Source of the DNA: Escherichia coli
GTDB lineage: Bacteria; Pseudomonadota; Gammaproteobacteria; Enterobacterales; Enterobacteriaceae
Length of the DNA stretch: 64,000 nucleotides
NCBI RefSeq assembly: GCF_003334335.1
Contig: NZ_QOWQ01000021.1
Reading direction: 5' to 3' (one strand)
Part shown: one piece after another, positions 6,780-17,674 of the stretch
How positions within the stretch are numbered: position 1 is the stretch's first letter
How the letters are laid out: the number at the start of each line of letters is the position of its first letter
Position numbers and translations under genes: made by a program
Notes under the pieces: generated by a model
Told to the model about the DNA's origin: nothing
The model's database searches: none
What the model saw: only the letters and a program-made list of their open reading frames with translations

Positions 6780-8438
6780 TTACTGACTCAGACTGTTTAT
6801 ATTTTTCTGGAGTTGGTGCTTTGCCTGCATGATGCGCCAGGCCTCACTGCCTGCCGGTATCTCACGTCGTTCATCACGTTCCTGAGATAAATCAATCGTT
6901 GTTTGTGCGTTTTCAGTGACCTTCTGAACCCGCTGGTGGCCTTTGGCAAACCGGATCAGTTTGTGTCTGATGTAGTTATTTACCTCAGGGGTAATTTCCA
7001 TCGGAAAGTTACTCAGTCCGTCAGGCCACTCACCGAACTTTTCCCGGAAAGTGTGAGCACACCATCCGTCACTGACTGGACGCCCCAGCGAAGCACGCTG
7101 GCGCTGATAAAATTTGATCTGACTCCACCAGGACTGTTTCTCTGCCTTCGTCGACTGATGCTGATTTTTACCCAGCTTATTAAGTTTGCGGCTAGTGTCA
7201 GTATCAACGTCTTCACCTCGCAGCGGCTTGTGTCCACATTTCGGGCAAACATAGACGCCTGCTGGCTTCATGTAGTGGCATTGAGGGCATTCATGTGGCA
7301 GTTTTTCGGCCCGTTCCTCAACTGCCCGGCGCGCGCTTTCCTCCATGCCGTCAGACTTACCGGGAAGCTCGTCGTACTCGATTGAATCCGGATAACCCAA
7401 ACGGTGCACGGTGCCGCTGTGATCGAAGATAAGGCAGGACTCTTTACCCGGTGCGGTGCGCAGCCCACGCCCGAGAGCCTGCAACCAGCGAATTTCGCTT
7501 TTTGTTGGCCTGGCGTAGATGATGCAACGAACGTCACTATCAAAGCCGGCCACCAGAACGCCCACACTAACGATGATTTTCGTTGCACCGGTTTCAAAGC
7601 GGTGAATGATGGTCTGGCGCTCATCTACCGGAGTGTCGGCGGTCATTACCTCAGCGTTAACACCCGCCAGGTTAAACTGGATTGTCAGATAATTGGCGTG
7701 AGCTACGTTGACGCAGAAAGCGATGGTAGGTAAATCCCGACCATTCTCCAGCCAGTTCTGTACGATGTCGCCCACCAGCGTAGAGCCGCACATGATTTCA
7801 GCCAGCTGTGTTTCGTTGTAATCGCGGCCGTACTCAAGCGAAGATGTGGTTTTAACACCTTTCAGATCCGGCTTAGTTGGCGCGTAAAATTCGTATTTAC
7901 TCAGATCGCCACGCTGGATTAACTCGCCGATGGTGGTCGGCTTAATCAGTCGGTCATAGTATTTGCCCAGGAACGGAGAAAACGGAGTACCCGACAGGCC
8001 AATCACCTTTACGCCTTTGCCGCGCAGACGTTCGATATCCTTCAGGATGCGTTTTTTACGCAGGTGCGCTTCGTCGATAATCAGCAGATCGATATTTTCA
8101 GGAAAAACACGACGAATAAGCGTGTCAGCGCTGGCAATCTGAATTTTCCGGTCCGGATCGTAGTTCGGGTGATCCGCCCAGATATAACCGATTTCATCTC
8201 CAGGTAAACCATACTGCACGAACCGATTAGCCGTCTGACCAATCAGGATGGTGTACGGAACACAGAACAGAACACGCATACCACGGCTGACAAAACCAGC
8301 AACTATGAAGGCTGCCAGACCCGTTTTACCGCTACCTGTTGGCGAGTAAACCATGAAGGTGTCGTTTGCCTTCCAGTCACGGCGCAACATGTTTAACGCT
8401 CGTTCCTGTGCAAAATTCGGCGTGATCGTCAGCTCCAT
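6780..8438 (-). CDS. Phage SF2 (DEAH) replicative helicase with a C-terminal zinc ribbon
   Basis: 552 aa. Walker A SPTGSGKT, motif II IIDEAH, motif VI QALGRGLR, and CPQCHYMKPAGVYVCPKCGH. Confidence 0.85.
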   Translation of the reverse strand: MELTITPNFAQERALNMLRRDWKANDTFMVYSPTGSGKTGLAAFIVAGFVSRGMRVLFCVPYTILIGQTANRFVQYGLPGDEIGYIWADHPNYDPDRKIQIASADTLIRRVFPENIDLLIIDEAHLRKKRILKDIERLRGKGVKVIGLSGTPFSPFLGKYYDRLIKPTTIGELIQRGDLSKYEFYAPTKPDLKGVKTTSSLEYGRDYNETQLAEIMCGSTLVGDIVQNWLENGRDLPTIAFCVNVAHANYLTIQFNLAGVNAEVMTADTPVDERQTIIHRFETGATKIIVSVGVLVAGFDSDVRCIIYARPTKSEIRWLQALGRGLRTAPGKESCLIFDHSGTVHRLGYPDSIEYDELPGKSDGMEESARRAVEERAEKLPHECPQCHYMKPAGVYVCPKCGHKPLRGEDVDTDTSRKLNKLGKNQHQSTKAEKQSWWSQIKFYQRQRASLGRPVSDGWCAHTFREKFGEWPDGLSNFPMEITPEVNNYIRHKLIRFAKGHQRVQKVTENAQTTIDLSQERDERREIPAGSEAWRIMQAKHQLQKNINSLSQ

Positions 8439-8851
8439 TGTGCAGCTCCCGTGCTGATGAGATAATAATTTTGTGATGTGGTTTTCATGGATTCCCCCTC
8501 ACATGGCTGGTGGCCTCCCCAAAGGCTGCCAGCCTCCCTTCTGATTCAGCTCCTCTGAAAAATCACTCTTCCAGGAAGAACCCTTTTCGTTTCTCAGCGC
8601 CTGAGCGCTTTGTACTACCTTGCTGATACGGGCGTTTTTTTAAATTGCGCCCTTAAGACAGTGATCTACTTAACCAATGGATCTCTCCTGTTGGAAAAGA
8701 CCCTATTCCTGCCCCAACACCCAATCCCCCCTTACCCCCCTTACCCTCTTCCCCATAAAAACGTACTACTTCCCTAGTACACATGAGGAGTTGGGTCAGT
8801 TGGTTGCCAACCTGAACAGGCACCTTTAAGCCTGCTTCTGTTCGGGTACCT
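8439..8851 (-). other. 413-bp non-coding early-right segment (candidate ori or structured leader) with a C-rich/G-rich tract
   Basis: No ORF of 60 aa or more on either strand. Contains the direct repeats CCCCCCTTA CCCCCCTTA CCCTCTT CCCC (8701-8754) and several short hairpins (GTACTA-N6-TAGTAC, GGGCG-N14-CGCCC). A 19-codon ORF overlaps the helicase start. Confidence 0.4.
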
Positions 8852-9160
8852 TTAAACCCGAAACAATGAGGAGCGCGATTGCGATCCAGCCAGGGGAGGT
8901 TCGGCTGTATACCCCTGTAAAGCTCTGCCCTGATTTCTTACAAACAGGCGGAGCCTTGTGTTTGCTTCGTGCCTTGCTCTGTTCTCCTTGCGGAATGAAA
9001 CAGGCTCAGCGTCAAAAGTGATTTCGTATACCTCCGCATATTTCAGGGCGACCTTCCGTCTCAGTGACGGAGGCAGCCCCTGTAACTGCTGCTGAATCCA
9101 CTCTTCGTCTGCCTGGCAGTACCTAGCTGGCATTTCAACCCTGACTAAATCCTGTTGCAT
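8852..9160 (-). CDS. Hypothetical early-right protein (102 aa, cII/O position)
   Basis: ORF track; co-oriented with cro-like gene; no domain recognised. Confidence 0.6.
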   Translation of the reverse strand: MQQDLVRVEMPARYCQADEEWIQQQLQGLPPSLRRKVALKYAEVYEITFDAEPVSFRKENRARHEANTRLRLFVRNQGRALQGYTAEPPLAGSQSRSSLFRV

Positions 9161-9491: not shown

Positions 9492-9629
9492 GACTCCTCT
9501 GATTGAGAGCAATACACTGGACATAAAAAACCCCATACTGTATTGGTTATTAGCAACGTGCTAACATTAGCACATGAGATCACAATACAGCAATACGCTG
9601 TAAAGCATTTAGCTAACAATGAGACAAGC
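9492..9629. promoter_or_regulatory. Divergent immunity promoter/operator region (OR-like)
   Basis: Inverted repeat TTAGCA-ACG-TGCTAA at 9550-9564. Extra TTAGCA half-site at 9567-9572. TTAGCTAA at 9609-9616. Outer inverted repeat ACTGTATTG...CAATACAG. Confidence 0.55.
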
Positions 9630-10085
9630 ATGGAAATCAAAGATATTCGCTTAAAAAATCTACAGACGGTAATCCAACGCAGCGGCTTAACCCAGACAGA
9701 TCTGGCGTTAAAATGTGAGATATCACCCTCACTTATAAGCCAAATAATGACTAAGCGCAGAAATATGGGAACTGCTCTCGCTAGAAAACTCGAGGGGCGA
9801 CTGAGCCTATCAGAAGGATGGTTTGACATCCCCCACTCATTGCTGGATTCCCCATGGCATCTAGCTAAAATGAGGGAAAAGACTGGTGAGACCACTATTG
9901 ATGAACAGCAACTAACTAAAAGAGAGACTCGACTTATTGAGTTATTCAGACAAATGCCTGAAAGCGAAAAAGACAGGATAATCAGTGAGTTATCTGAAAA
10001 GAAACGTAATTTTGACAAACTACTTGATGAGCTAATGGCTGTTAAAGCATCAAGAATGCCGATCGACAAAGACGAAAATGAATAA
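9630..10085 (+). CDS. cI-like immunity repressor (XRE HTH, no S24 peptidase domain), 151 aa from MEIKDIRLKNL
   Basis: HTH segment LTQTDLALKCEISPSLISQIMTKRRNMG. The C-terminal half is helical and acidic, without Ser/Lys protease motifs. Position and orientation match lambda cI. Confidence 0.7.
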   Translation: MEIKDIRLKNLQTVIQRSGLTQTDLALKCEISPSLISQIMTKRRNMGTALARKLEGRLSLSEGWFDIPHSLLDSPWHLAKMREKTGETTIDEQQLTKRETRLIELFRQMPESEKDRIISELSEKKRNFDKLLDELMAVKASRMPIDKDENE

Positions 10086-10119
10086 TAAATACAACGCACT
10101 ATAAAAAAAACAGCAAACA

Positions 10120-10162
10120 TTAGCATTTTGCTATTGTCAAGAATAACGCATAGCGCTACATT
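10120..10162 (+). promoter_or_regulatory. PL/OL-like promoter-operator
   Basis: TTAGCA-TTT-TGCTAT (5/6 match to the OR half-site) abuts TTGTCA, 17 nt, TACATT, placed 27 nt upstream of the next ORF. Confidence 0.55.
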
Positions 10163-10188
10163 CACCTCAGCAAGTAAAAACAAGTGAG

Positions 10189-10641
10189 GTGAATGTAATG
10201 TTAAATGATAAACATGACTCTTATTCCGTAAACTCTCTGTTGATTTGTGCTCAAGCGGCACTATTAGGCGGTACCGCTTCAAACCATGACGTCATCAACC
10301 TCTTAGATGTTGCACAAGACATCATCTCTTCAACTATGAATTCCTTTACAGATAGTAGCGCTCCCGGCGCTAATGTTGATTTATTTACCAAAGAAGTTAG
10401 CGCTAGTAATTCCCCAGCATTATCTTTCGGTCAACGTATTCTCCAAGCGCGTAAATCAGCAAGTCTTCAACAACATCATATTGCCAGCGGTGCTGGAGTG
10501 ACTGTTCAGGCTGTTTCGTTATGGGAAAATGACTCAGCAATTCCTACTTGCGACAAAATTATCCCATTGGCAAATCTTCTTGGCTGCGATCCAATGTGGT
10601 TACTGACTGGTGCTTATAAACAAAATCAGGAGGAAGCATAA
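10189..10641 (+). CDS. First early-left gene: 150-aa protein with a unique N-domain and a C-terminal XRE HTH
   Basis: GAGGTG before the ATG. C-terminal segment FGQRILQARKSASLQQHHIASGAGVTVQAVSLWENDSAIP is an XRE-type HTH. Confidence 0.7.
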   Translation: MNVMLNDKHDSYSVNSLLICAQAALLGGTASNHDVINLLDVAQDIISSTMNSFTDSSAPGANVDLFTKEVSASNSPALSFGQRILQARKSASLQQHHIASGAGVTVQAVSLWENDSAIPTCDKIIPLANLLGCDPMWLLTGAYKQNQEEA

Positions 10642-11566: not shown

Positions 11567-11775
11567 TGTCTGATTTATCCCCTCTTATACACGAAAAAGT
11601 ACAGATCATTATGACGATTGAAAATGGCCAAGTCACAGGTGTCTGCAAAGTCCGCGATGGCTAGCTGATTGCCAGCATGGATACATTCATACGGCTGGCA
11701 GAAAGAGCGGGGTATCAGATAACAGCACCAGCTCAGGAGGAAACCAGTGGCATTAACAGCAACACGCATTCCTGA
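11566..11775 (+). pseudogene. Small ORF split by an in-frame amber codon (32 plus 36 codons)
   Basis: The sequence reads MSDLSPLIHEKVQIIMTIENGQVTGVCKVRDG-TAG(11662-11664)-LIASMDTFIRLAERAGYQITAPAQEETSGINSNTHS in one frame. Confidence 0.4.
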
Positions 11776-11965
11776 GCGGATCCACCGGCAGGCATTGCAG
11801 GTCCTGTTGTTGTACCGATGCCGACGGATATTTCCGCATCGGATACAGCGCACCGGATATCTCAGTCTGAAGGTTAACCGTCGCTGGCGGCTGTTATCGA
11901 AAGACGACGGCCGGAACTGGGAAGTAATGAGTCATGAACGTTATTCGGGAGAAATAAAGAAATGA
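11747..11965 (+). CDS. 72-aa basic protein with a HigB/RelE-like C-terminal motif
   Basis: The segment KVNRRWRLLSKDDGRNWEVMSHERY resembles the E. coli HigB C-terminus (LRVVAM...IREVMTHKEYD, from memory). A paralogue lies at 61966-62193. Confidence 0.5.
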   Translation: MALTATRIPERIHRQALQVLLLYRCRRIFPHRIQRTGYLSLKVNRRWRLLSKDDGRNWEVMSHERYSGEIKK

Positions 11966-12360
11966 TCGACAACCGCACCGCCAGCGCCAGCGCCATTAAC
12001 CAGGCATTACAGAAACATGATACACCCGTCGGCCCGTTATTTTTTGTAACACGCCACGGAAGAACAAAAAAATGCCTCACTCGAAAAACGGCAATTCGTT
12101 ACCTGGCCTTCTTTATGACCACCCGCGCTTTTGAACGTTCAGGATTCCGACAACGCCATCCTGACAAGCGTTTTATCTTCAACGGGAATGAAATATGGAA
12201 ACGTGGAGAATCAACCACAGAGTATACCCGCGCACACCAGCGAACAATCAGACGACTGCGCAGACTCATCGCCAGGAAACAGTATACAGAAAAATGGTTC
12301 AGAAAATATGACACATGGAGCGCCGGATATTACGAACTGATGGCAACAAAACCATTCTGA
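11962..12360 (+). CDS. Hypothetical basic protein (132 aa)
   Basis: ATGA overlap with the preceding ORF; no domain recognised. Confidence 0.55.
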   Translation: MIDNRTASASAINQALQKHDTPVGPLFFVTRHGRTKKCLTRKTAIRYLAFFMTTRAFERSGFRQRHPDKRFIFNGNEIWKRGESTTEYTRAHQRTIRRLRRLIARKQYTEKWFRKYDTWSAGYYELMATKPF

Positions 12361-12420
12361 CGTAAACGAAATTAACCATGACGCAATTAAATAAGGCAAG
12401 CCGAATACATCAGGAGGACC

Positions 12421-12609
12421 ATGAACATTTATTTCAGAATAGTTATATCACTGGCAATTATCACATGTATTTACGGATTAATCGTTCCGGCCCTCATATC
12501 AATGAAGGATACGGTAGCAGTGATTTCTGGCTTTGCTCTGGCGTGTCTGACCCCGCCCTGCATTTATGCCATTTATAAGGGTCTTTCTTTTTCTAAGGAT
12601 AAAAGATGA
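12421..12609 (+). CDS. Small two-TM membrane protein (62 aa)
   Basis: AGGAGG before the ATG. Two hydrophobic helices (IVISLAIITCIYGLIVPALI and VAVISGFALACLTPPCIYAIY). ATGA overlap with the SPFH gene. Confidence 0.65.
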   Translation: MNIYFRIVISLAIITCIYGLIVPALISMKDTVAVISGFALACLTPPCIYAIYKGLSFSKDKR

Positions 12610-13433
12610 AAAAATTACTTTTTGCTTTAGCCCTTGTTCTGCCGACCATTGGCCTTGTCGGTTGCGATCGCGTTGAGCCTGGTAATGTGGGCATCAAAGT
12701 AAACAAACTGGGCGACGATAAAGGCGTCGGTGAAGTGGTCGGTGTTGGGCGCTACTGGACGGGATGGAACACTGAGGTTTACATCTTCCCGACCTTTAAG
12801 CAGATGAAGACCTACGATGATCCATTCAGTTTCCAGATGAGTGACGGTACAACCATCGGCTATCACATCGGCGTGGCCTACAAAGTTGATCCATCCAAAG
12901 TTACCACAGTCTTTCAGACCTACCGCAAAGGCGTGGACGACATTACCGACACCGACCTGCGCCAGAAGATAGCCGACGCACTCAACCGACTGGCCAGCAA
13001 AATGACCACCGACAAATTTATCGACGGCGGCAAGTCTGAGCTGCTGGATGCAGCTCTTAAAGACATTCAGGAAGAAATGACGCCCATCGGTATTCAGGTA
13101 ATGAGCCTCTCATATGTGGGTAAGCCGGAGTACCCGCCTACTGTTATCGACAGCATTAATGCCAAAGTCACGGCGAACCAGAAAACCCTGCAACGCGAGC
13201 AGGAAGTAAAACAGCGCGAAGCGGAAGCCAACATGTTGCGCGCGGAAGCTGCCGGACAGGCAGATGCGATTCGCACAAAAGCCCAGGCCGAAGCCGATGC
13301 TATTCGTTTACGCGGTGAAGCTCTGCGCCAGAACCCCGGTGTTATGGAGCTGGAAGCCATCAACAAGTGGAACGGTACACTGCCGCAATACATGACCAGC
13401 GGTGCCAACACACCATTTATTCAGGTTAAGTAA
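12606..13433 (+). CDS. SPFH/band-7 (prohibitin-like) lipoprotein
   Basis: Signal peptide plus lipobox LVGC. SPFH core followed by an Ala/Glu/Gln-rich coiled coil (REQEVKQREAEANMLRAEAAGQADAIRTKAQAEADAIRLRGEA). Confidence 0.8.
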   Translation: MKKLLFALALVLPTIGLVGCDRVEPGNVGIKVNKLGDDKGVGEVVGVGRYWTGWNTEVYIFPTFKQMKTYDDPFSFQMSDGTTIGYHIGVAYKVDPSKVTTVFQTYRKGVDDITDTDLRQKIADALNRLASKMTTDKFIDGGKSELLDAALKDIQEEMTPIGIQVMSLSYVGKPEYPPTVIDSINAKVTANQKTLQREQEVKQREAEANMLRAEAAGQADAIRTKAQAEADAIRLRGEALRQNPGVMELEAINKWNGTLPQYMTSGANTPFIQVK

Positions 13434-13476
13434 TACATATGCCCGGTATTACACGCCGGGCTGTCTGGAGATAAAA

Positions 13477-14226
13477 ATGAATATTGTAACCATCAACAAC
13501 AAACAGTTTCCGGTAATCGAATATCGCGGTCAGCGTGTTGTGACATTTGCAATGATTGATGACGTCCACCAGCGCCCGGAAGGTACCGCCCGTGCTGCGT
13601 TTAACCGCAACCGTTCTCACTTTATCGAAGGGGTGGATTTTCTTGAAATGACTGCGGACGTAATACGTACGGAGTCACTTTCTGATGCCTTTGCCGCGCG
13701 AACTGCCAAAGGGATCATTCTTTTCGAGTCTGGTTACCTGATGTTGACGAAGCCTTTTAACGATGCTCTTGCATGGCAGGTTCAGCGCGAACTGGTTAAC
13801 AGCTATTTCCGAACTCATGCGCCGCTGACGGAAATGGAGATGATCGCTGCAATGGCCGCCGATGCCGTTCGCCAGCAGAAGCGCCTGAGTCATGTTGAAG
13901 AGAAGATCGAAACGGTCACCAAAGCTGTGGAGAACATCAAACGCGGCACAATGCGCACTGGATATGTCGGTTACCGCCAGGTGGTAGCCAAAAGCGGAAT
14001 GAGTGACGCCAAGTGTCGGAATCTGGTCAACGCCTACCACATCCCTACCGACACGCACGAATTTATGACTCCGGACGGTCTGTTGTCTCGCAGGGCTGTC
14101 GTCGAGCTTGAGACATTTATGGCGGCGTTCCACCAAATGATGTCAGAGGCTGAACCACGCGGCACACGCTGGTATCACCCGAAGATGGGGCTTTTCCAGG
14201 TAATCGGATGGGAGGATAAAGCATGA
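13477..14226 (+). CDS. Antirepressor-like protein (ORF6N-type N-domain, KilA-C/ORF6C-like C-domain), 249 aa from MNIVTINNKQF
   Basis: The segment FPVIEYRGQRVVTFAMIDDVHQRPEGTARAAFNRNRSHFIEGVDFLEM is typical of ORF6N/Ant N-domains. TGGAGA lies before ATG 13477. Confidence 0.65.
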   Translation: MNIVTINNKQFPVIEYRGQRVVTFAMIDDVHQRPEGTARAAFNRNRSHFIEGVDFLEMTADVIRTESLSDAFAARTAKGIILFESGYLMLTKPFNDALAWQVQRELVNSYFRTHAPLTEMEMIAAMAADAVRQQKRLSHVEEKIETVTKAVENIKRGTMRTGYVGYRQVVAKSGMSDAKCRNLVNAYHIPTDTHEFMTPDGLLSRRAVVELETFMAAFHQMMSEAEPRGTRWYHPKMGLFQVIGWEDKA

Positions 14227-14792
14227 TCATCCAGTCAAAACTTATTCGCGCCGCTCTGGTGTGCGCTGCTAAAAACGACGTTCGTTATTACCTGAACGGT
14301 CTTCACATCACGCCAAAACATATTGAGGCAACCAATGGTTCCGTGGCACTGCGCATGACTCACGGCATCCGGACGAAGAAAAACATCATTGTCCAGTTCG
14401 AAGGTGGCGTCCCGGCCAAAGCCGAAACGACAGAGCTGATTTTTAGTAAAGAGCCGATCGCTGTTCATCGCGACCAGTTTCAGCGCCGACTGTCCATTAC
14501 CGGCATTAAATTGGTGGACGGTTGTTTTCCGGATTTGGAACGCATCATTCCGAAAAAATTTGACCTCTGTACACACCCGGTGATCCAGGCGGGTTACCTG
14601 AGTTATCCAGAGAAGATGTTTGGTCGTGAGCGTAAATTTATTCCCGTCCAGTTACGTCCCTCCGGTGACGGGCAAGCGGTCAGAATTCAGTTTGATTCCA
14701 TCATCAACTCAATGTATGGCAATCCTGAATTTGTTGTGATGCCTTGTCGTGATCATGGCGATTTCAATGTGGCTCAGGAGCATCCGGAATGA
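14223..14792 (+). CDS. Truncated DnaN (DNA polymerase III beta-clamp) homologue, 189 aa
   Basis: NDVRYYLNGLHI...EATNGSVALRM aligns with DnaN QDVRYYLNGMLFE...VATDGHRLA. KLVDGCFPDLERIIPK aligns with KLVDGRFPDYRRVLPK. C-terminal FVVMPCR aligns with YVVMPMRL. DnaN sequence is from memory. Confidence 0.7.
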   Translation: MIIQSKLIRAALVCAAKNDVRYYLNGLHITPKHIEATNGSVALRMTHGIRTKKNIIVQFEGGVPAKAETTELIFSKEPIAVHRDQFQRRLSITGIKLVDGCFPDLERIIPKKFDLCTHPVIQAGYLSYPEKMFGRERKFIPVQLRPSGDGQAVRIQFDSIINSMYGNPEFVVMPCRDHGDFNVAQEHPE

Positions 14793-15316: not shown

Positions 15317-15553
15317 ATGGGCAATGTGATTCAACTGGCTCCCAATGAATGGGTTTGTGAAAGCGTTCTAATCGCAATTACCGGGCTCAAACCAGGCACA
15401 ATTCTTCGGGCCCGGAAAGAATGCTGGATGGTTGGAAGAGAGTATATTCACGTATCACCAGACGGTAATCCAAAGCCTTCCAGTGAATGTATGTATAACA
15501 GAAAAGCAATAGATGCCTGGGTCGCTTCAATGAAAAACAAACAACCTGGGTGA
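15317..15553 (+). CDS. xis: Excisionase (lambda Xis-like)
   Basis: RARKECWMVGREYIHVSPDG resembles lambda Xis VRECRIF...DGREYLFH. Lies immediately upstream of int. Confidence 0.7.
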   Translation: MGNVIQLAPNEWVCESVLIAITGLKPGTILRARKECWMVGREYIHVSPDGNPKPSSECMYNRKAIDAWVASMKNKQPG

Positions 15554-15608
15554 TTTAATGCCATGAAGTATGTAAGCTCGTATCGCTCTTGGGCGTCTGG
15601 AGGTATCA

Positions 15609-16922
15609 ATGGATAAAGTCAAATATCCAACAGGCGTCGAAAACCACGGCGGCACATTACGCATCTGGTTTAATTTTAAAGGTAAACGTGTCAGGGAAAA
15701 TCTTGGTGTCCCTGACACTGCCAAGAACAGGAAGATCGCCGGGGAACTGCGGACATCGGTATGTTTTGCCATCCGCACAGGAAGCTTTGATTATGCTGCA
15801 CAGTTCCCTGACTCCCCCAACCTTCAGGCTTTTGGGGTAAGTAAAAAAGAAATTACGGTGAAGGAACTTGAAGAAAAGTGGCTGGATCTGAAACGAATGG
15901 AAATCTCTGCAAATGCATTCAATCGCTATGAATCCGTTGCAAGAACGATGGTTTCGAAAATTGGAGGCAGTAGACTGGTGTCATCGGTAACCAAAGAGGA
16001 ATTGCTGTATATCAGGAAAGATTTGCTAACCGGGTATCAGAATTCAACGAAAAACAAAGCAGCAGCAAAAGGACGGAGCGTCGTTACTGTAAATTATTAC
16101 ATGACGACAATCGCTGGAATGTTTCAGTTTGCTGCAGATCACGGTTACTTAGAAGCAAATCCCTTCCAGGGAATTAAGCCTCTTAAAAGAGCCAGGGCAG
16201 AGCCAGATCCGCTAACTCGTGACGAATTTATTCGCCTGATAGATGCTTGCCGACATCAGCAGACGAAAAACCTGTGGTCATTGGCTGTGTACACAGGAAT
16301 GCGTCACGGTGAACTGGTCTCCCTGGCCTGGGAAGATATCGATCTGAAGGCAGGAACAATTACCATCAGGCGCAATTATACGAAACTTGGTGAGTTCACT
16401 CTACCGAAAACTGAAGCAAGCACAAACAGGGTTGTGCACCTTATCCAGCCCGCTATCAGTGTCCTGAAAAATCAGGCTGAAATGACAAGACTGGGTAAGC
16501 AGTACAACATCAAGGTGCAACTACGTGAATATGGACGTTCAGTGAACCATGAATGTACTTTCGTGTTTAACCCTCAAGTGGTTAGAAAAAGCGAACAGGT
16601 AGGTTTTGTCTACAAAGTCGATTCTGTAGGTGACTCATGGGAAACAGCCATTAAGCGTGCAGGGATCAGGCATCGAAAGGCATACCAGTCACGACACACT
16701 TATGCGTGCTGGTCATTATCTGCCGGAGCAAACCCAAGCTTCATTGCCAGCCAGATGGGCCATGCAAGTGCCCAGATGGTATTCAATGTATACGGAGCAT
16801 GGATGACTGACAGCAATGCAGAACAGATCGCAATGCTGAATCAGAAGCTGACAGATTATGTCCCAATGATGCCCCATAGTCACCAAAGTGACACCAGAGG
16901 CTTATTAAAATCAGTAAGTTAA
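15609..16922 (+). CDS. int: Tyrosine integrase (IntR/IntE-like, N-terminal arm-binding domain)
   Basis: 437 aa. N-terminus KYPTGVENHGGTLRIWFNFKGKRVRE. Catalytic residues R...HxxR...Y (RHGELVSL, SRHTYACW, VYGAW). Last phage gene before yecE. Confidence 0.9.
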   Translation: MDKVKYPTGVENHGGTLRIWFNFKGKRVRENLGVPDTAKNRKIAGELRTSVCFAIRTGSFDYAAQFPDSPNLQAFGVSKKEITVKELEEKWLDLKRMEISANAFNRYESVARTMVSKIGGSRLVSSVTKEELLYIRKDLLTGYQNSTKNKAAAKGRSVVTVNYYMTTIAGMFQFAADHGYLEANPFQGIKPLKRARAEPDPLTRDEFIRLIDACRHQQTKNLWSLAVYTGMRHGELVSLAWEDIDLKAGTITIRRNYTKLGEFTLPKTEASTNRVVHLIQPAISVLKNQAEMTRLGKQYNIKVQLREYGRSVNHECTFVFNPQVVRKSEQVGFVYKVDSVGDSWETAIKRAGIRHRKAYQSRHTYACWSLSAGANPSFIASQMGHASAQMVFNVYGAWMTDSNAEQIAMLNQKLTDYVPMMPHSHQSDTRGLLKSVS

Positions 16923-16948
16923 TCCTTAATACCCGTCATGTTAACTGC

Positions 16949-17674
16949 GTGGAGGGCAACACCACGCTTTACGCCCTGCCGAAACCCGAGGTTGTCCTGC
17001 GCTGGCGTGAACAGACCACAGATGACTTCCGCTTCTGTTTTAAGTTTCCGGCGACCATTTCGCATCAGGCAGCATTACGGCATTGCGATGATTTAGTGAC
17101 TGAATTTTTGACCCGCATGTCACCGTTGGCTCCGCGCATTGGGCAATACTGGCTGCAACTGCCTGCCACATTCGGCCCACGGGAGCTGCCTGCGCTTTGG
17201 CATTTTCTCGATTCTCTCCCTGGCGAATTTAATTATGGTGTGGAAGTCCGCCATCCACAGTTTTTCGCCAAAGGGGAAGAGGAACAAACGCTTAATCGCG
17301 GTTTACATCAGCGCGGCGTTAATCGGGTGATTTTAGACAGCCGCCCGGTTCATGCAGCATGTCCACACAGTGAAGCTATTCGCGACGCTCAACGAAAAAA
17401 ACCTAAAGTTCCGGTACATGCTGTACTGACGGAGACAAATCCGCTGATCCGTTTTATCGGTAGTGATGATATGACGCAAAACCGGGAATTATTTCAGGTC
17501 TGGTTACAGAAATTAGCGCAGTGGCATCAGACCACTACGCCTTATCTTTTTTTACATACGCCAGACATTGCCCTGGCCCCGGAACTGGTACATACCCTGT
17601 GGGAAGACTTACGTAAAACGCTTCCAGAGATCGGAGCAGTTCCGGCTATTCCACAGCAATCTTCTCTTTTCTGA
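16949..17674 (+). pseudogene. yecE: yecE (DUF72), 5'-truncated by the prophage insertion
   Basis: The ORF begins VEGNTTLYALPKPEVV, about residue 32 of K-12 YecE (272 aa, from memory). The upstream sequence is phage DNA. Confidence 0.85.

What the first reader, a model, noticed from the sequence alone, without database searches (positions are those of the whole stretch)
12421..13433. Phage-encoded 2-TM peptide plus periplasmic SPFH (band-7) lipoprotein operon
A 62-aa two-helix membrane protein with a strong AGGAGG SD overlaps (ATGA) a 275-aa protein. That protein has a lipoprotein signal (lipobox LVGC), an SPFH core and an Ala/Glu/Gln coiled-coil tail. The arrangement mirrors cellular NfeD-SPFH operons but is minimal and sits in a phage early-left operon. 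SPFH scaffolds organise membrane microdomains and proteases. In a phage they could remodel the envelope for superinfection exclusion, control lysis timing or protect against membrane-acting abortive systems.
Basis: partly seen in the sequence, partly recalled or inferred. Interest (0 to 1): 0.5.

Follow-up and report, generated by a model that had tools for sequence, protein, structure and literature searches.

The report
Phage SPFH lipoprotein with two-helix partner
An E. coli prophage carries a two-gene membrane-scaffold cassette, a lipid-anchored SPFH protein and a tiny two-helix membrane partner, which matches phage N4 genes 19 and 20, is widespread in phages and some bacteria, and has no known function.

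Summary
A 62-aa two-helix membrane ORF (12421-12609) overlaps by ATGA a 275-aa ORF (12606-13433). The second ORF has a lipobox (LVGC, Asp at +2), a Band_7/SPFH domain (Pfam E=8e-31) and a 65-residue helix. It sits between the repressor and the integrase of a lambdoid prophage integrated next to a DUF72 (yecE-type) gene.

The genes are not new. Related DNA occurs in 535 of 5426 complete E. coli genomes, in phiP27, in Stx2 phages and in P1-like phage-plasmids. The pair corresponds to N4 gp19/gp20 (63% identity to gp20).

Among 42 diverged SPFH clusters, 37 keep the small partner on the same strand upstream, 34 of them with its stop inside or beside the SPFH start. P23, S27 and G37 are invariant in the 38 aligned partners. 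At least four in-frame fusions exist. No other neighbour is conserved. The pair is also chromosomal in Dyella and Leptospira, and probably Caulobacter.

The partner is not NfeD, and the SPFH protein is neither HflK nor HflC. The AlphaFold model matches the cage-forming HflK/C, prohibitin and erlin protomers.

[quoted passage not shown] The client is unknown. Published N4 rapid-lysis mutants argue against a lysis-timing role. Interest is moderate.

The parts
12412..12417 (+). Shine-Dalgarno AGGAGG for ORF A, 3 nt before the ATG
   Evidence: Read directly from the sequence.
12421..12609 (+). ORF A: a 62-aa two-helix inner-membrane hairpin, inferred N-in/C-in. It belongs to phrog_1130, the family of N4 gp19.
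   Evidence: ORF list and translation. phrog_1130 at E=1.5e-23. The N4-type gp19 of phage AL25 is also phrog_1130. Hydropathy gives two segments. Family-wide charge bias: N-tail +55/-22, loop +14/-40, C-tail +99/-48.
12487..12531 (+). Conserved turn motif of ORF A, P23-A-L-I-S27 ... G37. P23, S27 and G37 are invariant in the 38 aligned partners, which average only 23% identity.
   Evidence: Alignments.
12594..12599 (+). Shine-Dalgarno-like TAAGGA for ORF B, inside the 3' end of ORF A
   Evidence: Read directly from the sequence.
12606..12609 (+). ATGA start/stop overlap, indicating translational coupling of A and B
   Evidence: Sequence. The same 4-nt overlap occurs in 112 of 171 surveyed loci.
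12606..13433 (+). ORF B: a 275-aa SPFH/Band 7 lipoprotein (phrog_200), homologue of N4 gp20
   Evidence: Pfam Band_7 at E=8e-31. phrog_200 at E about 1e-114. 63% identity to N4 gp20. AlphaFold2 pLDDT 84.5. Foldseek top hits are HflC, HflK, prohibitin and erlin.
12606..12668 (+). Lipoprotein signal peptide, lipobox L17-V-G-C20 (Cys codon at 12663-65) and Asp21 at +2, an inner-membrane retention signal in E. coli
   Evidence: Sequence. C-D-R is present in all 94 close homologues that have a detectable lipobox. The Lol avoidance rule is described in PMC9595528.
12669..13229 (+). SPFH (Band 7) domain, residues 22-208. Its first strand starts about 3 residues after the lipidated Cys.
   Evidence: Pfam envelope. 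AF2 strands begin at residue 19. The Cys-to-GxVG spacing is fixed at 6 residues in 204 of 207 homologues.
13137..13331 (+). One long helix, residues 178-242, rich in Ala/Glu/Gln. It corresponds to the wall helix of SPFH cages.
   Evidence: AF2 secondary structure. Full-length Foldseek alignments to HflK/C, prohibitin and erlin.
13368..13385 (+). C-terminal family motif W255-N-G-T-L-P260. W, G and P are invariant.
   Evidence: Alignments.
13441..13461 (+). 7-bp GC-rich hairpin just after the stop of ORF B. It has no U-tract and is not a canonical terminator. Whether it belongs to the cassette is uncertain.
   Evidence: RNA fold -14.4 kcal/mol, z=-2.2. The terminator scan does not call it.

Best explanation
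The locus is a self-contained two-gene membrane-scaffold cassette, the counterpart of phage N4 gp19-gp20.

**Shown.**
- ORF B is an SPFH/Band 7 protein with a lipoprotein signal peptide. Its fold begins a few residues after the lipidated Cys. It continues into one ~65-residue helix and a conserved C-terminal W-x-G-x-x-P motif. This is the same overall protomer layout as HflK/C, prohibitin, erlin and stomatin.
- ORF A is a 62-aa two-helix hairpin with three residues (P23, S27, G37) invariant in the 38 aligned partners, at the turn between the helices.
- The two genes are translationally coupled, co-inherited across very distant phages and bacteria, and fused in frame several times.

**Inferred.**
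- B oligomerises into a closed HflK/C-like cage.
- A is made 1:1 with B and lies beneath the cage as the ring of transmembrane helices that ordinary SPFH proteins supply with their own N-terminal anchor. The pair is thus a 'split' SPFH protein. The natural fusions recreate the unsplit form.

**Function (least certain).**
- The cassette appears to be expressed during lytic development. It lies co-directionally downstream of the repressor region here, and among genes outside the lysis cassette in N4.
- I propose that it fences off a patch of inner membrane and controls access to, or by, a resident membrane client.
- By analogy with HflK/C and prohibitin, the first candidate client is the FtsH quality-control protease.
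- The role would be a general one in the infected cell, not a lysogeny-specific one.
For: **Identity.**
- Pfam Band_7 matches at E=8e-31. PHROG hits are phrog_200 and phrog_1130.
- N4 gp18, gp19 and gp20 are annotated 'superinfection exclusion', 'membrane protein' and 'lipoprotein'. B is 63% identical to gp20.

**Fold.**
- AF2 pLDDT is 84.5: SPFH 19-175, helix 178-242.
- Foldseek gives full-length hits to HflC and HflK (7vhq, 7wi3), prohibitin (8rrh), erlin, stomatin, flotillin and QmcA (8z5g), all at E<=1e-7.

**Pairing.**
- Of 42 SPFH clusters (75% identity), 40 have a lipobox and 37 have the partner on the same strand upstream. In 34 the partner's stop lies inside or beside the SPFH start; the other three sit about 150 nt (two) and about 800 nt (one) away.
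- In-frame fusions: L101 (the same protein as P0171, Rhodopseudomonas), L113, P0002 (enterobacterial P1-type), and L211, L212, L213 and L231.
- The AF2 model of fusion P0002 has three TM helices followed by the SPFH domain.
- No other neighbouring gene is shared across clusters.

**Topology.**
- Charge bias places both tails of A in the cytoplasm and the acidic loop in the periplasm.
- The fusions are only topologically possible with that orientation.

**Anchor.**
- C-D-R is present in all 94 close enterobacterial homologues with a detectable lipobox. Non-enteric relatives mostly have Ser at +2.
- PMC9595528 reports that Asp or Glu at +2 and hydrophilic residues at +3 block entry into LolCDE.
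- The Cys-to-first-strand spacing is fixed at 6 residues in 204 of 207 homologues.

**General rather than lysogeny-specific role.**
- The pair occurs in the N4-like phages N4, AL25 and QDWS595 (Schitoviridae) and in SSE121, OLIVR5 and UFV-P2. That N4-like phages are strictly virulent is my own knowledge.
- Chromosomal copies have conserved flanks in Dyella (22-25 of 38 loci) and in Leptospira (next to the same conserved flanking genes in 6 of 6 loci, which I read by eye as succinate dehydrogenase subunits without running a domain search).
Against: - No oligomer, localisation or A-B contact was tested. The available tools model single chains only.
- Most non-enteric homologues have Ser at +2, which in E. 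coli would send a lipoprotein to the outer membrane. PM0222, a prophage HflK/C-like protein of Pasteurella whose homology to ORF B I could not verify, was found in outer-membrane vesicles (PMC9872710).
- The +3 Arg could weaken the Asp signal. This rests on my recollection of Tokuda-lab work and was not checked.
- Similarity to HflK and HflC is remote: about 17% identity, and 25 bits against cut-offs of 134-159. No FtsH-contact residues were examined.
- Distant SPFH relatives occur in haloarchaeal viruses, whose hosts, to my knowledge, lack FtsH.
- Co-variation of partner and SPFH divergence is weak (r=0.15, Mantel p about 0.02).
- No promoter or terminator evidence fixes the time of expression.
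Confidence: 0.5

Rival explanations
1. Superinfection exclusion. The cage and hairpin sit at the periplasmic face of the inner membrane and block genome entry by other phages, for example by occupying or fencing off the membrane proteins used for DNA translocation. This would protect the infected or induced cell.
For: - The position is that of an accessory gene with inferred early or middle expression.
- The pair lies next to a gene annotated 'superinfection exclusion' in N4 (gp18) and in AL25 (phrog_1510). In PhiSH19 the SPFH gene lies next to such a gene (PMC3220722); I did not check that phage for the small partner.
- It is a mobile cassette with no fixed neighbours.
- Membrane-anchored exclusion lipoproteins are known, for example Ltp of TP-J34 and Llp of T5 (my own knowledge).
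Against: - Vertical chromosomal inheritance with conserved synteny in Dyella and Leptospira points to a cell-autonomous role.
- No PADLOC model matches.
- Papers from 2021 and 2026 still call the role of phage SPFH proteins unclear.
- The neighbouring exclusion-annotated genes are separate transcription units in AL25, with predicted terminators between them.
Confidence: 0.2
2. HflK/C mimic that sets the lysis-lysogeny decision. The phage cage binds or displaces host FtsH/HflKC and so changes the stability of cII/cIII-type regulators. It would be a functional analogue of lambda cIII, which lies in the same operon position.
For: - The best structural matches are HflC and HflK in complex with FtsH.
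- It has the same periplasmic-side topology as HflK/C (inference from the lipoprotein signal).
- It lies between the repressor and the integrase.
- The idea has been raised in genome papers (PMC8540360, PMC4936722).
Against: - The same pair is present in N4-like phages (Schitoviridae), which are strictly virulent (my knowledge) and make no lysogeny decision, and in SSE121 and OLIVR5.
- It also occurs in bacterial chromosomes.
- HflK and HflC equivalog scores are far below cut-off.
- There is a single SPFH gene, not a K/C heteropair.
Confidence: 0.12
3. Lysis-timing control. The SPFH scaffold holds a holin or pinholin (or ORF A itself, which has holin-like size and topology) inactive, giving delayed lysis of the kind seen in N4 lysis inhibition.
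For: - ORF A has two TM helices, an N-in/C-in orientation and a basic C-tail, as class II holins do.
- In the Staphylococcus Kayvirus JA1, a distant SPFH homologue follows the endolysin gene.
- N4 shows lysis inhibition (bioRxiv 10.1101/2025.11.12.688109).
Against: - A selection of more than 60 N4 rapid-lysis mutants gave four classes: the lysis cassette (gp61, gp63), gp50, the terminal repeat, and miscellaneous one-off changes. The terms gp19 and gp20 do not occur in the paper's text. Its Table 1 is an image I could not read, so a single allele in the miscellaneous class cannot be excluded. Null mutations in a 1-kb antiholin target should have been common.
- In the identical E110019 prophage the holin, lysozyme and lysis-protein genes lie about 11 kb away, on the other side of the immunity region.
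- The Kayvirus partner is a different protein (phrog_3667).
- The pair is chromosomal in non-phage contexts.
Confidence: 0.07
4. Lysogenic-conversion lipoprotein. The protein is made in the lysogen, reaches the outer membrane or vesicles, and benefits the bacterium, for example through virulence or immune stimulation via TLR1/2. This has been reported for the prophage-encoded HflK/C-like PM0222 of Pasteurella multocida.
For: - PM0222 lies on a lambda-like prophage, is detected in normally grown cells and in vesicles, and its deletion attenuates virulence (PMC9872710).
- The cassette is common in pathogenic E. coli prophages, including Stx2 phages.
- Most non-enteric homologues lack Asp at +2.
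Against: - Homology of PM0222 to this subfamily could not be checked.
- The enterobacterial proteins all carry the inner-membrane retention residue Asp at +2.
- There is no own promoter, terminator or GC anomaly of the kind typical of morons.
- It is present in N4-like phages, which are strictly virulent (my knowledge).
Confidence: 0.08

Closest known systems
Phage N4 gp19 (membrane protein) and gp20 (lipoprotein); PHROG families phrog_1130 and phrog_200
   Same: - Same two families, same order, and overlapping start and stop codons.
- ORF B is 63% identical to gp20.
- ORF A and the gp19 homologue of the N4-like phage AL25 (annotated by BLAST to N4 gp19) both match phrog_1130.
- Neither N4 protein has a described function in the literature I could search.
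   Different: - N4 is a virulent podovirus in which the pair is a small unit flanked by predicted terminators (shown in its relative AL25). Here the pair is embedded in the leftward operon of a temperate lambdoid prophage.
- The +2 residue is Tyr (C-Y-D) in the N4 type and Asp (C-D-R) here.
- The two small partners are too diverged for BLASTP to detect.
E. coli HflK/HflC-FtsH complex (PDB 7vhq, 7wi3, 9cz2)
   Same: - Same protomer layout: a membrane-proximal SPFH domain, a long wall helix and a C-terminal tail.
- Best Foldseek hits, E about 1e-13 over the full length.
- Same side of the inner membrane (periplasmic), by inference from the lipoprotein signal.
   Different: - About 17% identity, and NCBIfam equivalog scores of 25 bits against cut-offs of 134-159.
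- Lipid anchor instead of an N-terminal TM helix.
- One SPFH gene instead of a K/C heteropair.
- A separate two-TM partner.
- FtsH binding is untested.
SPFH-NfeD operons, e.g. E. coli QmcA-YbbJ (PDB 8z5g) and archaeal stomatin PH1511 with PH1510
   Same: - An SPFH gene is co-transcribed with a small multi-TM partner.
- QmcA is the best sequence-profile match in the PDB (E=1.6e-6).
- The partner presumably sits in the membrane patch under the cage.
   Different: - The partner has no NfeD OB-fold domain and no detectable similarity to NfeD or YbbJ.
- At 62 aa it has no soluble domain at all.
- The QmcA SPFH domain faces the cytoplasm (my own knowledge), whereas this one is exported.
Prohibitin, erlin and stomatin cages of eukaryotes (PDB 8rrh, 9o9u, 9oh9)
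   Same: Full-length structural similarity, E about 1e-12 to 1e-10. RefSeq names some bacterial members of this subfamily 'prohibitin family protein'.
   Different: These are eukaryotic organelle or plasma-membrane proteins with hairpin or TM anchors, without a lipoprotein signal and without a PxLIS-type partner.

Membership tests
SPFH / Band 7 superfamily (Pfam PF01145) | Band_7 profile match above the curated cut-off | tested here: met
   107.9 bits against a cut-off of 23.6, E=8e-31, residues 22-208.
SPFH / Band 7 superfamily (Pfam PF01145) | Alpha/beta SPFH fold followed by a long helix and a C-terminal tail, as in cage-forming members | tested here: met
   AF2 pLDDT 84.5 with helix 178-242. 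Foldseek full-length hits to HflK/C, prohibitin, erlin, stomatin, flotillin and QmcA.
SPFH / Band 7 superfamily (Pfam PF01145) | Assembly into a large homo-oligomeric ring or cage on a membrane | not testable with these tools
   Only single-chain prediction is available. Multimer modelling, native PAGE or cryo-EM would be needed.
HflK / HflC (FtsH modulators) | Match to the HflK or HflC equivalog models above cut-off | tested here: not met
   TIGR01932 gives 25.4 bits (cut-off 134.4) and TIGR01933 gives 23.4 bits (cut-off 159.4).
HflK / HflC (FtsH modulators) | Two adjacent paralogous SPFH genes (K and C), each with an N-terminal TM anchor | tested here: not met
   There is one SPFH gene, anchored by a lipobox, and the adjacent gene is a 62-aa hairpin.
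HflK / HflC (FtsH modulators) | Physical enclosure or regulation of FtsH | not testable with these tools
   No interaction data. Pull-down or cryo-EM would be needed.
NfeD-SPFH operon | Partner carries an NfeD (PF01957) OB-fold domain | tested here: not met
   No Pfam hit for ORF A at E<=0.1. None of six family members hits NfeD at E<=10. No PDB hit, including YbbJ of 8z5g. At 62 aa there is no room for the domain.
NfeD-SPFH operon | Small membrane partner adjacent to and co-oriented with the SPFH gene | tested here: met
   ATGA overlap. The partner lies on the same strand upstream in 37 of 42 clusters, 34 of them at the SPFH start.
N4 gp19-gp20 type cassette (phrog_1130 + phrog_200) | SPFH lipoprotein of phrog_200 homologous to N4 gp20 | tested here: met
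   phrog_200 at E about 1e-114. 63% identity over the full length to N4 gp20.
N4 gp19-gp20 type cassette (phrog_1130 + phrog_200) | Upstream two-TM partner of phrog_1130 with the P...S...G turn motif, overlapping or abutting the SPFH start | tested here: met
   phrog_1130 at E=1.5e-23 for ORF A and 3.3e-20 for the AL25 (N4-like) gp19 homologue. P23, S27 and G37 are invariant in the 38 aligned partners.
Bacterial lipoproteins (Lgt/LspA/Lnt substrates) | Signal peptide ending in a lipobox [LVI][ASTVI][GAS]C | tested here: met
   MKKLLFALALVLPTIGLVGC. A lipobox is present in 40 of 42 clusters. Lipidation itself was not tested.
Bacterial lipoproteins (Lgt/LspA/Lnt substrates) | Inner-membrane retention (Lol avoidance) signal, Asp at +2 | tested here: met
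   C-D-R here and in all 94 close homologues with a detectable lipobox. The rule is described in PMC9595528. Actual localisation was not tested, and the effect of Arg at +3 is uncertain.
Known anti-phage defence systems (PADLOC-DB v2) | Match of either protein to a defence-system model | tested here: not met
   No hits at E<=0.1 for A, B or four neighbouring proteins.
Class II holins / pinholins (considered for ORF A) | Two TM helices, N-in/C-in, charged C-tail | tested here: met
   Hydropathy and charge bias. This is topology only.
Class II holins / pinholins (considered for ORF A) | Membership of a holin family and a place in the lysis cassette | tested here: not met
   No holin family match for ORF A; one of six relatives gives 0.04 to Phage_holin_3_6. 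In the identical E110019 prophage the holin, lysozyme and lysis-protein genes are about 11 kb away.

The most novel reading that the evidence does not exclude
The pair defines an unrecognised, ancient two-component SPFH system: a lipid-anchored cage protein plus a PxLIS-motif hairpin that supplies the transmembrane ring. It is native to several bacterial phyla and has been captured repeatedly by phages of every lifestyle. In phages it would serve as a general takeover or conflict device at the inner membrane. For example, it might wall off FtsH, DNA-entry proteins or membrane-depolarising abortive-infection effectors early in infection.
Probability: 0.25. Interest if true: 0.7.

Novelty: new variant of a known kind. 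Interest (0 to 1): 0.4.

Why it matters
SPFH proteins (HflK/C, prohibitins, stomatins, flotillins) are now understood as membrane cages. Several phage genome papers note that phages carry them and that nobody knows why (PMC8540360 in 2021; PMC13239085 in 2026).

This analysis shows that the phage protein comes as a fixed two-gene unit with a conserved hairpin partner. The unit is shared by N4, P1-like plasmids, Stx2 and phiP27-type prophages and many uncultured phages, and it has chromosomal relatives in Dyella, Leptospira and Caulobacter.

That turns a vague annotation into a defined and tractable system. Two small genes can be deleted from N4 or a prophage, or expressed alone. There are three obvious point mutants (P23, S27, G37) and a clear structural prediction, a split SPFH cage.

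If the client is FtsH or a phage-entry component, the system would reveal a common way for phages to reorganise the host inner membrane. If deletion and expression give no phenotype, it remains one more conserved accessory gene pair.

Tried and rejected
- **NfeD identity of the partner.** No Pfam match and no PDB match, including YbbJ. Rejected.
- **Known defence system.** No PADLOC hits.
- **HflK or HflC orthology.** Equivalog scores are far below cut-off. Rejected as membership and kept as an analogy.
- **Moron signature.** No sigma-70-like promoter on the + strand between 10162 and 15766. No canonical terminator after ORF B. GC content is unremarkable (0.41-0.54). Promoter counts are below shuffled expectation.
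- **Guilt by association.** Clustering all flanking ORFs of 42 diverged loci found no third conserved gene.
- **Lysis-inhibition role.** The N4 rapid-lysis mutant classes named in the paper's text do not include gp19 or gp20.
- **Mirror-tree co-evolution of A and B.** The correlation is weak (r=0.15, Mantel p about 0.02) and is not used as strong evidence.
- **AF2 of the natural fusion P0002 as a proxy for the complex.** It gives three TM helices followed by the SPFH domain. Small-partner sequences also misaligned when mixed into that alignment.
- **First viral-contig scan with the window protein listed first.** It returned only near-identical prophages. Re-ordering the alignment fixed this.
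- **Two genome contigs attempts.** They failed because no stretch was conserved enough. A tighter alignment worked.
- **Literature.** Ten searches found no functional study of a phage SPFH protein. The homology of Pasteurella PM0222 to this family could not be checked because its sequence was not retrievable.
Full report

Yes. ORF A (12421-12609, +, 62 aa) and ORF B (12606-13433, +, 275 aa) are both present and overlap in ATGA.
- AGGAGG lies at 12412-17, only 3 nt before the ATG of A. The motif is strong but the spacing is short.
- TAAGGA lies 6 nt before the ATG of B.
- A has two hydrophobic segments.
- B begins MKKLLFALALVLPTIGLVGC|DR, a lipoprotein signal with lipobox LVGC.
- B matches Pfam Band_7/SPFH at E=8e-31 (107.9 bits against a cut-off of 23.6), residues 22-208.
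- The AlphaFold2 model, built on 94 sequences with mean pLDDT 84.5, shows an SPFH alpha/beta domain (19-175), one long helix (178-242), a short helix and a flexible tail.

**2. Context**

The 1.2-kb region is 100% identical to several E. coli chromosomes. In E110019 it is annotated inside a lambdoid prophage. In window coordinates the + strand carries, in order:
- two HTH genes (9543-10085 and 10189-10641);
- small ORFs;
- a ParE-like ORF (11747-11965);
- a 132-aa unknown ORF (11962-12360);
- the pair;
- an ORF6N antirepressor-like gene (13477-14226);
- a 189-aa ORF;
- a DUF4222 ORF;
- an excisionase (15317-15553);
- an integrase (15609-16922);
- a DUF72 (yecE-type) gene.

The 'early-left operon' placement fits gene order and strand. 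I found no own promoter, canonical terminator or GC anomaly for the pair. It therefore does not look like a classical moron. Its expression time is inferred, not shown.

**3. How common is it?**
- Related DNA is found in 535 of 5426 complete E. coli genomes. In 215 of them the match covers at least 80% of the query, and 198 places are on plasmids.
- Protein homologues of B occur in 780 of 50,697 phage records. These include phiP27, a P1-type phage-plasmid, N4-like phages, Vequintavirinae, Pseudomonas, Erwinia, Agrobacterium and Caulobacter phages. More remote relatives occur in Staphylococcus Kayvirus, Enterococcus phages, crAss-like and Lak phages and haloviruses.
- tblastn finds A in only 25 phage records. 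That reflects fast divergence, not absence (see section 4).

**4. The pair is a conserved unit**

In N4 itself, gp19 ('membrane protein', 8057-8263) overlaps gp20 ('lipoprotein', 8256-9092).
- B is 63% identical to gp20.
- A and the gp19 homologue of the N4-like phage AL25 (annotated by BLAST to N4 gp19) both match phrog_1130, although BLASTP cannot align A with N4 gp19.

I collected 171 loci from phage records and IMG/VR contigs and grouped them into 42 SPFH clusters at 75% identity. An iterated HMM of the small protein gave these results:
- 40 of 42 clusters have a lipobox Cys directly before the first SPFH strand.
- 37 of 42 have the partner on the same strand upstream.
- In 34 of these, the stop of the partner falls inside or just before the SPFH start.
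- Two have a gap of about 150 nt and one a gap of about 800 nt.
- Two clusters are in-frame fusions.

Across the 38 aligned partners, mean identity is only 23%, yet P23, S27 and G37 are invariant. Charge counts are N-tail +55/-22, loop +14/-40 and C-tail +99/-48. This puts both tails in the cytoplasm and the conserved acidic turn in the periplasm.

Independent fusions exist in several lineages:
- a Rhodopseudomonas protein (P0171, 354 aa);
- an enterobacterial P1-type protein (P0002, 347 aa);
- four bacterial-genome or MAG loci, two of them labelled Eubacteriaceae and Iamiaceae and one Bacteroidales.

All fusions keep the order hairpin, basic linker, signal-peptide helix, SPFH. That order only works with the topology inferred above. 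AF2 of P0002 gives three TM helices followed by the SPFH domain. No other flanking gene is shared among the 42 clusters. The two genes therefore move as a self-contained cassette.

**5. It is not only a phage module**
- In Dyella and other Rhodanobacteraceae the pair sits in the chromosome with conserved flanks in 22-25 of 38 loci. In the one annotated Dyella locus these flanks are Penicillinase_R-type and ribonucleotide-reductase genes.
- In six Leptospira species the SPFH gene lies next to the same conserved flanking genes, and five of the six loci have a detectable partner. By eye the flanking genes look like succinate dehydrogenase subunits; I did not run a domain search on them.
- In Caulobacter a divergent two-TM ORF (GPLWGSGTD) precedes the lipoprotein SPFH gene in 10 of 13 loci.
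- Xenorhabdus, Morganella, Pantoea, Salmonella and Bacteroidales also carry the pair.
- A narrow profile of the enterobacterial partner finds 99 representatives of 50%-identity clusters, all 36-91 aa long.

**6. What it resembles and what it is not**

Foldseek aligns the whole model to HflC and HflK (7vhq, 7wi3), prohibitin (8rrh), erlin, stomatin, flotillin and QmcA in the QmcA-YbbJ complex (8z5g). E-values run from 3e-13 to 1e-7 at about 14-18% identity. The best sequence-profile match in the PDB is QmcA at 1.6e-6. So B has the protomer layout of cage-forming SPFH proteins.

It is not HflK or HflC. Equivalog scores are 23-25 bits against cut-offs of 134-159, there is a single SPFH gene, and the anchor is lipid rather than a TM helix. 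The partner is not NfeD. No Pfam or PDB match exists for any of six family members, and 62 aa leaves no room for the OB fold. No PADLOC defence model matches.

**7. Which membrane?**

The lipidated Cys is followed by Asp-Arg.
- All 94 close enterobacterial homologues with a detectable lipobox have C-D-R.
- The N4 type has C-Y-D.
- Non-enteric relatives mostly have C-S.

In E. coli, Asp at +2 with suitable +3 residues is the Lol avoidance signal. Asp or Glu at +2 and hydrophilic residues at +3 block entry into LolCDE (PMC9595528). I recall, without checking, that Tyr at +2 can also retain lipoproteins.

The strict Asp in the one clade where the +2 rule is established suggests that inner-membrane retention matters. 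An alpha-helical partner and the fusions also require the inner membrane. The Cys-to-first-strand spacing is fixed at 6 residues in 204 of 207 homologues. The SPFH domain is therefore held flat against the membrane, as in HflK/C. Localisation was not tested. The Ser-type relatives and the vesicle location of Pasteurella PM0222 (PMC9872710; homology unverified) are caveats.

**8. Mechanism**

Shown:
- fold family;
- lipobox;
- coupling;
- co-inheritance;
- fusions;
- conserved turn motif;
- charge bias.

[quoted passage not shown] A, made 1:1 with B, provides the ring of transmembrane helices that other SPFH proteins carry themselves. The system is thus a split SPFH protein.

Function is open. 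SPFH cages typically enclose or regulate membrane proteases or channels, so FtsH is the first candidate client. The pair occurs in N4-like phages, which are strictly virulent (my own knowledge), and in bacterial chromosomes. This argues for a general inner-membrane role in the (infected) cell, not a lysogeny switch.

Rivals:
- **Superinfection exclusion.** The pair neighbours exclusion-annotated genes in N4 and AL25, and the SPFH gene does so in PhiSH19. Chromosomal vertical inheritance and the lack of any test count against it.
- **Control of cII through FtsH.** The virulent phages argue against it.
- **Lysis timing.** More than 60 N4 rapid-lysis mutants fell into the lysis cassette (gp61, gp63), gp50, the terminal repeat and a miscellaneous class of one-off changes. 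The paper's text never mentions gp19 or gp20, though its Table 1 was not readable to me.
- **Lysogenic-conversion lipoprotein of the PM0222 kind.**

**9. Novelty and verdict**

The genes are long annotated: N4 gp19/gp20, phiP27 L05 as 'putative serine protease', and RefSeq 'SPFH domain-containing protein'. Genome papers state that the role is unclear (PMC8540360; PMC13239085). In ten literature searches I did not find any description of three things:
- the fixed pairing with a non-NfeD hairpin partner;
- the recurrent fusions;
- the chromosomal relatives.

I class it as a variant of a known kind (SPFH scaffolds). It is common and uncharacterised. It is of moderate interest because it gives a concrete, easily tested system for the question of why phages carry SPFH proteins.

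Noticed in passing
window 11747-11965 (+): A 72-aa ORF with a ParE-like toxin domain (PF24732, E=3e-17) overlaps the start of the next ORF (11962-12360, phrog_1886, unknown function). I identified no antitoxin partner.
   Followed up: no
window 14223-14792 (+): A 189-aa ORF has a weak match to the beta-clamp central domain (PF02767, E=0.005). It also matches phrog_3007 (labelled RusA-like resolvase) and phrog_947 (processivity factor). The same gene is annotated as frameshifted in E. coli E110019.
   Followed up: no
window 15317-17674: The prophage end consists of a DUF1233 excisionase, a 437-aa integrase (same length as phiP27 L01) and then a DUF72 (yecE-type) gene. One Stx2 phage carrying the same pair is named for integration at yecE, and phiP27 has a similar integrase end.
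   Followed up: partly
window 13441-13461: A 7-bp GC-rich hairpin lies immediately after the SPFH stop codon (-14.4 kcal/mol, z=-2.2). It has no U-tract. It might be a cassette boundary or an mRNA-stabilising element.
   Followed up: partly
L216 and L217 (E. coli ECMA0423, Shigella flexneri SFBU1023): The small ORF and the SPFH gene are separated by about 0.8 kb, and the small ORF has an altered C-terminus. This suggests that an insertion has split the pair in these genomes.
   Followed up: no
L003 (P1-type phage-plasmid MH445380, 31.5-40.3 kb): A 126-kb P1-like element carries the pair between the dmt methylase and the ban helicase, which I recall (not checked) to be a variable accessory slot. 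A related protein (P0002, 8 member sequences) is an in-frame fusion of the two genes.
   Followed up: partly
L010 (Staphylococcus phage JA1, Kayvirus): A distant SPFH homologue (25% identity) with an N-terminal TM anchor directly follows the split endolysin gene. It is preceded by a different, single-TM 102-aa protein (phrog_3667). This may be an analogous but non-homologous partner in Gram-positive phages.
   Followed up: no
L218-L240 (Leptospira) and L234-L252 (Caulobacter): Chromosomal copies of the pair. In Leptospira the SPFH gene lies next to the same conserved flanking genes in 6 of 6 species; by eye these look like succinate dehydrogenase subunits, which I did not confirm by a domain search. 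In Caulobacter the upstream two-TM ORF is so diverged (GPLWGSGTD) that the HMM misses it.
   Followed up: partly
window 9543-10641 (+): Two consecutive HTH_3 genes follow the divergent cro-like region. A promoter-like site (TTGTCA-17-TACATT, 10134-10162) lies between them and could be the leftward early promoter.
   Followed up: no
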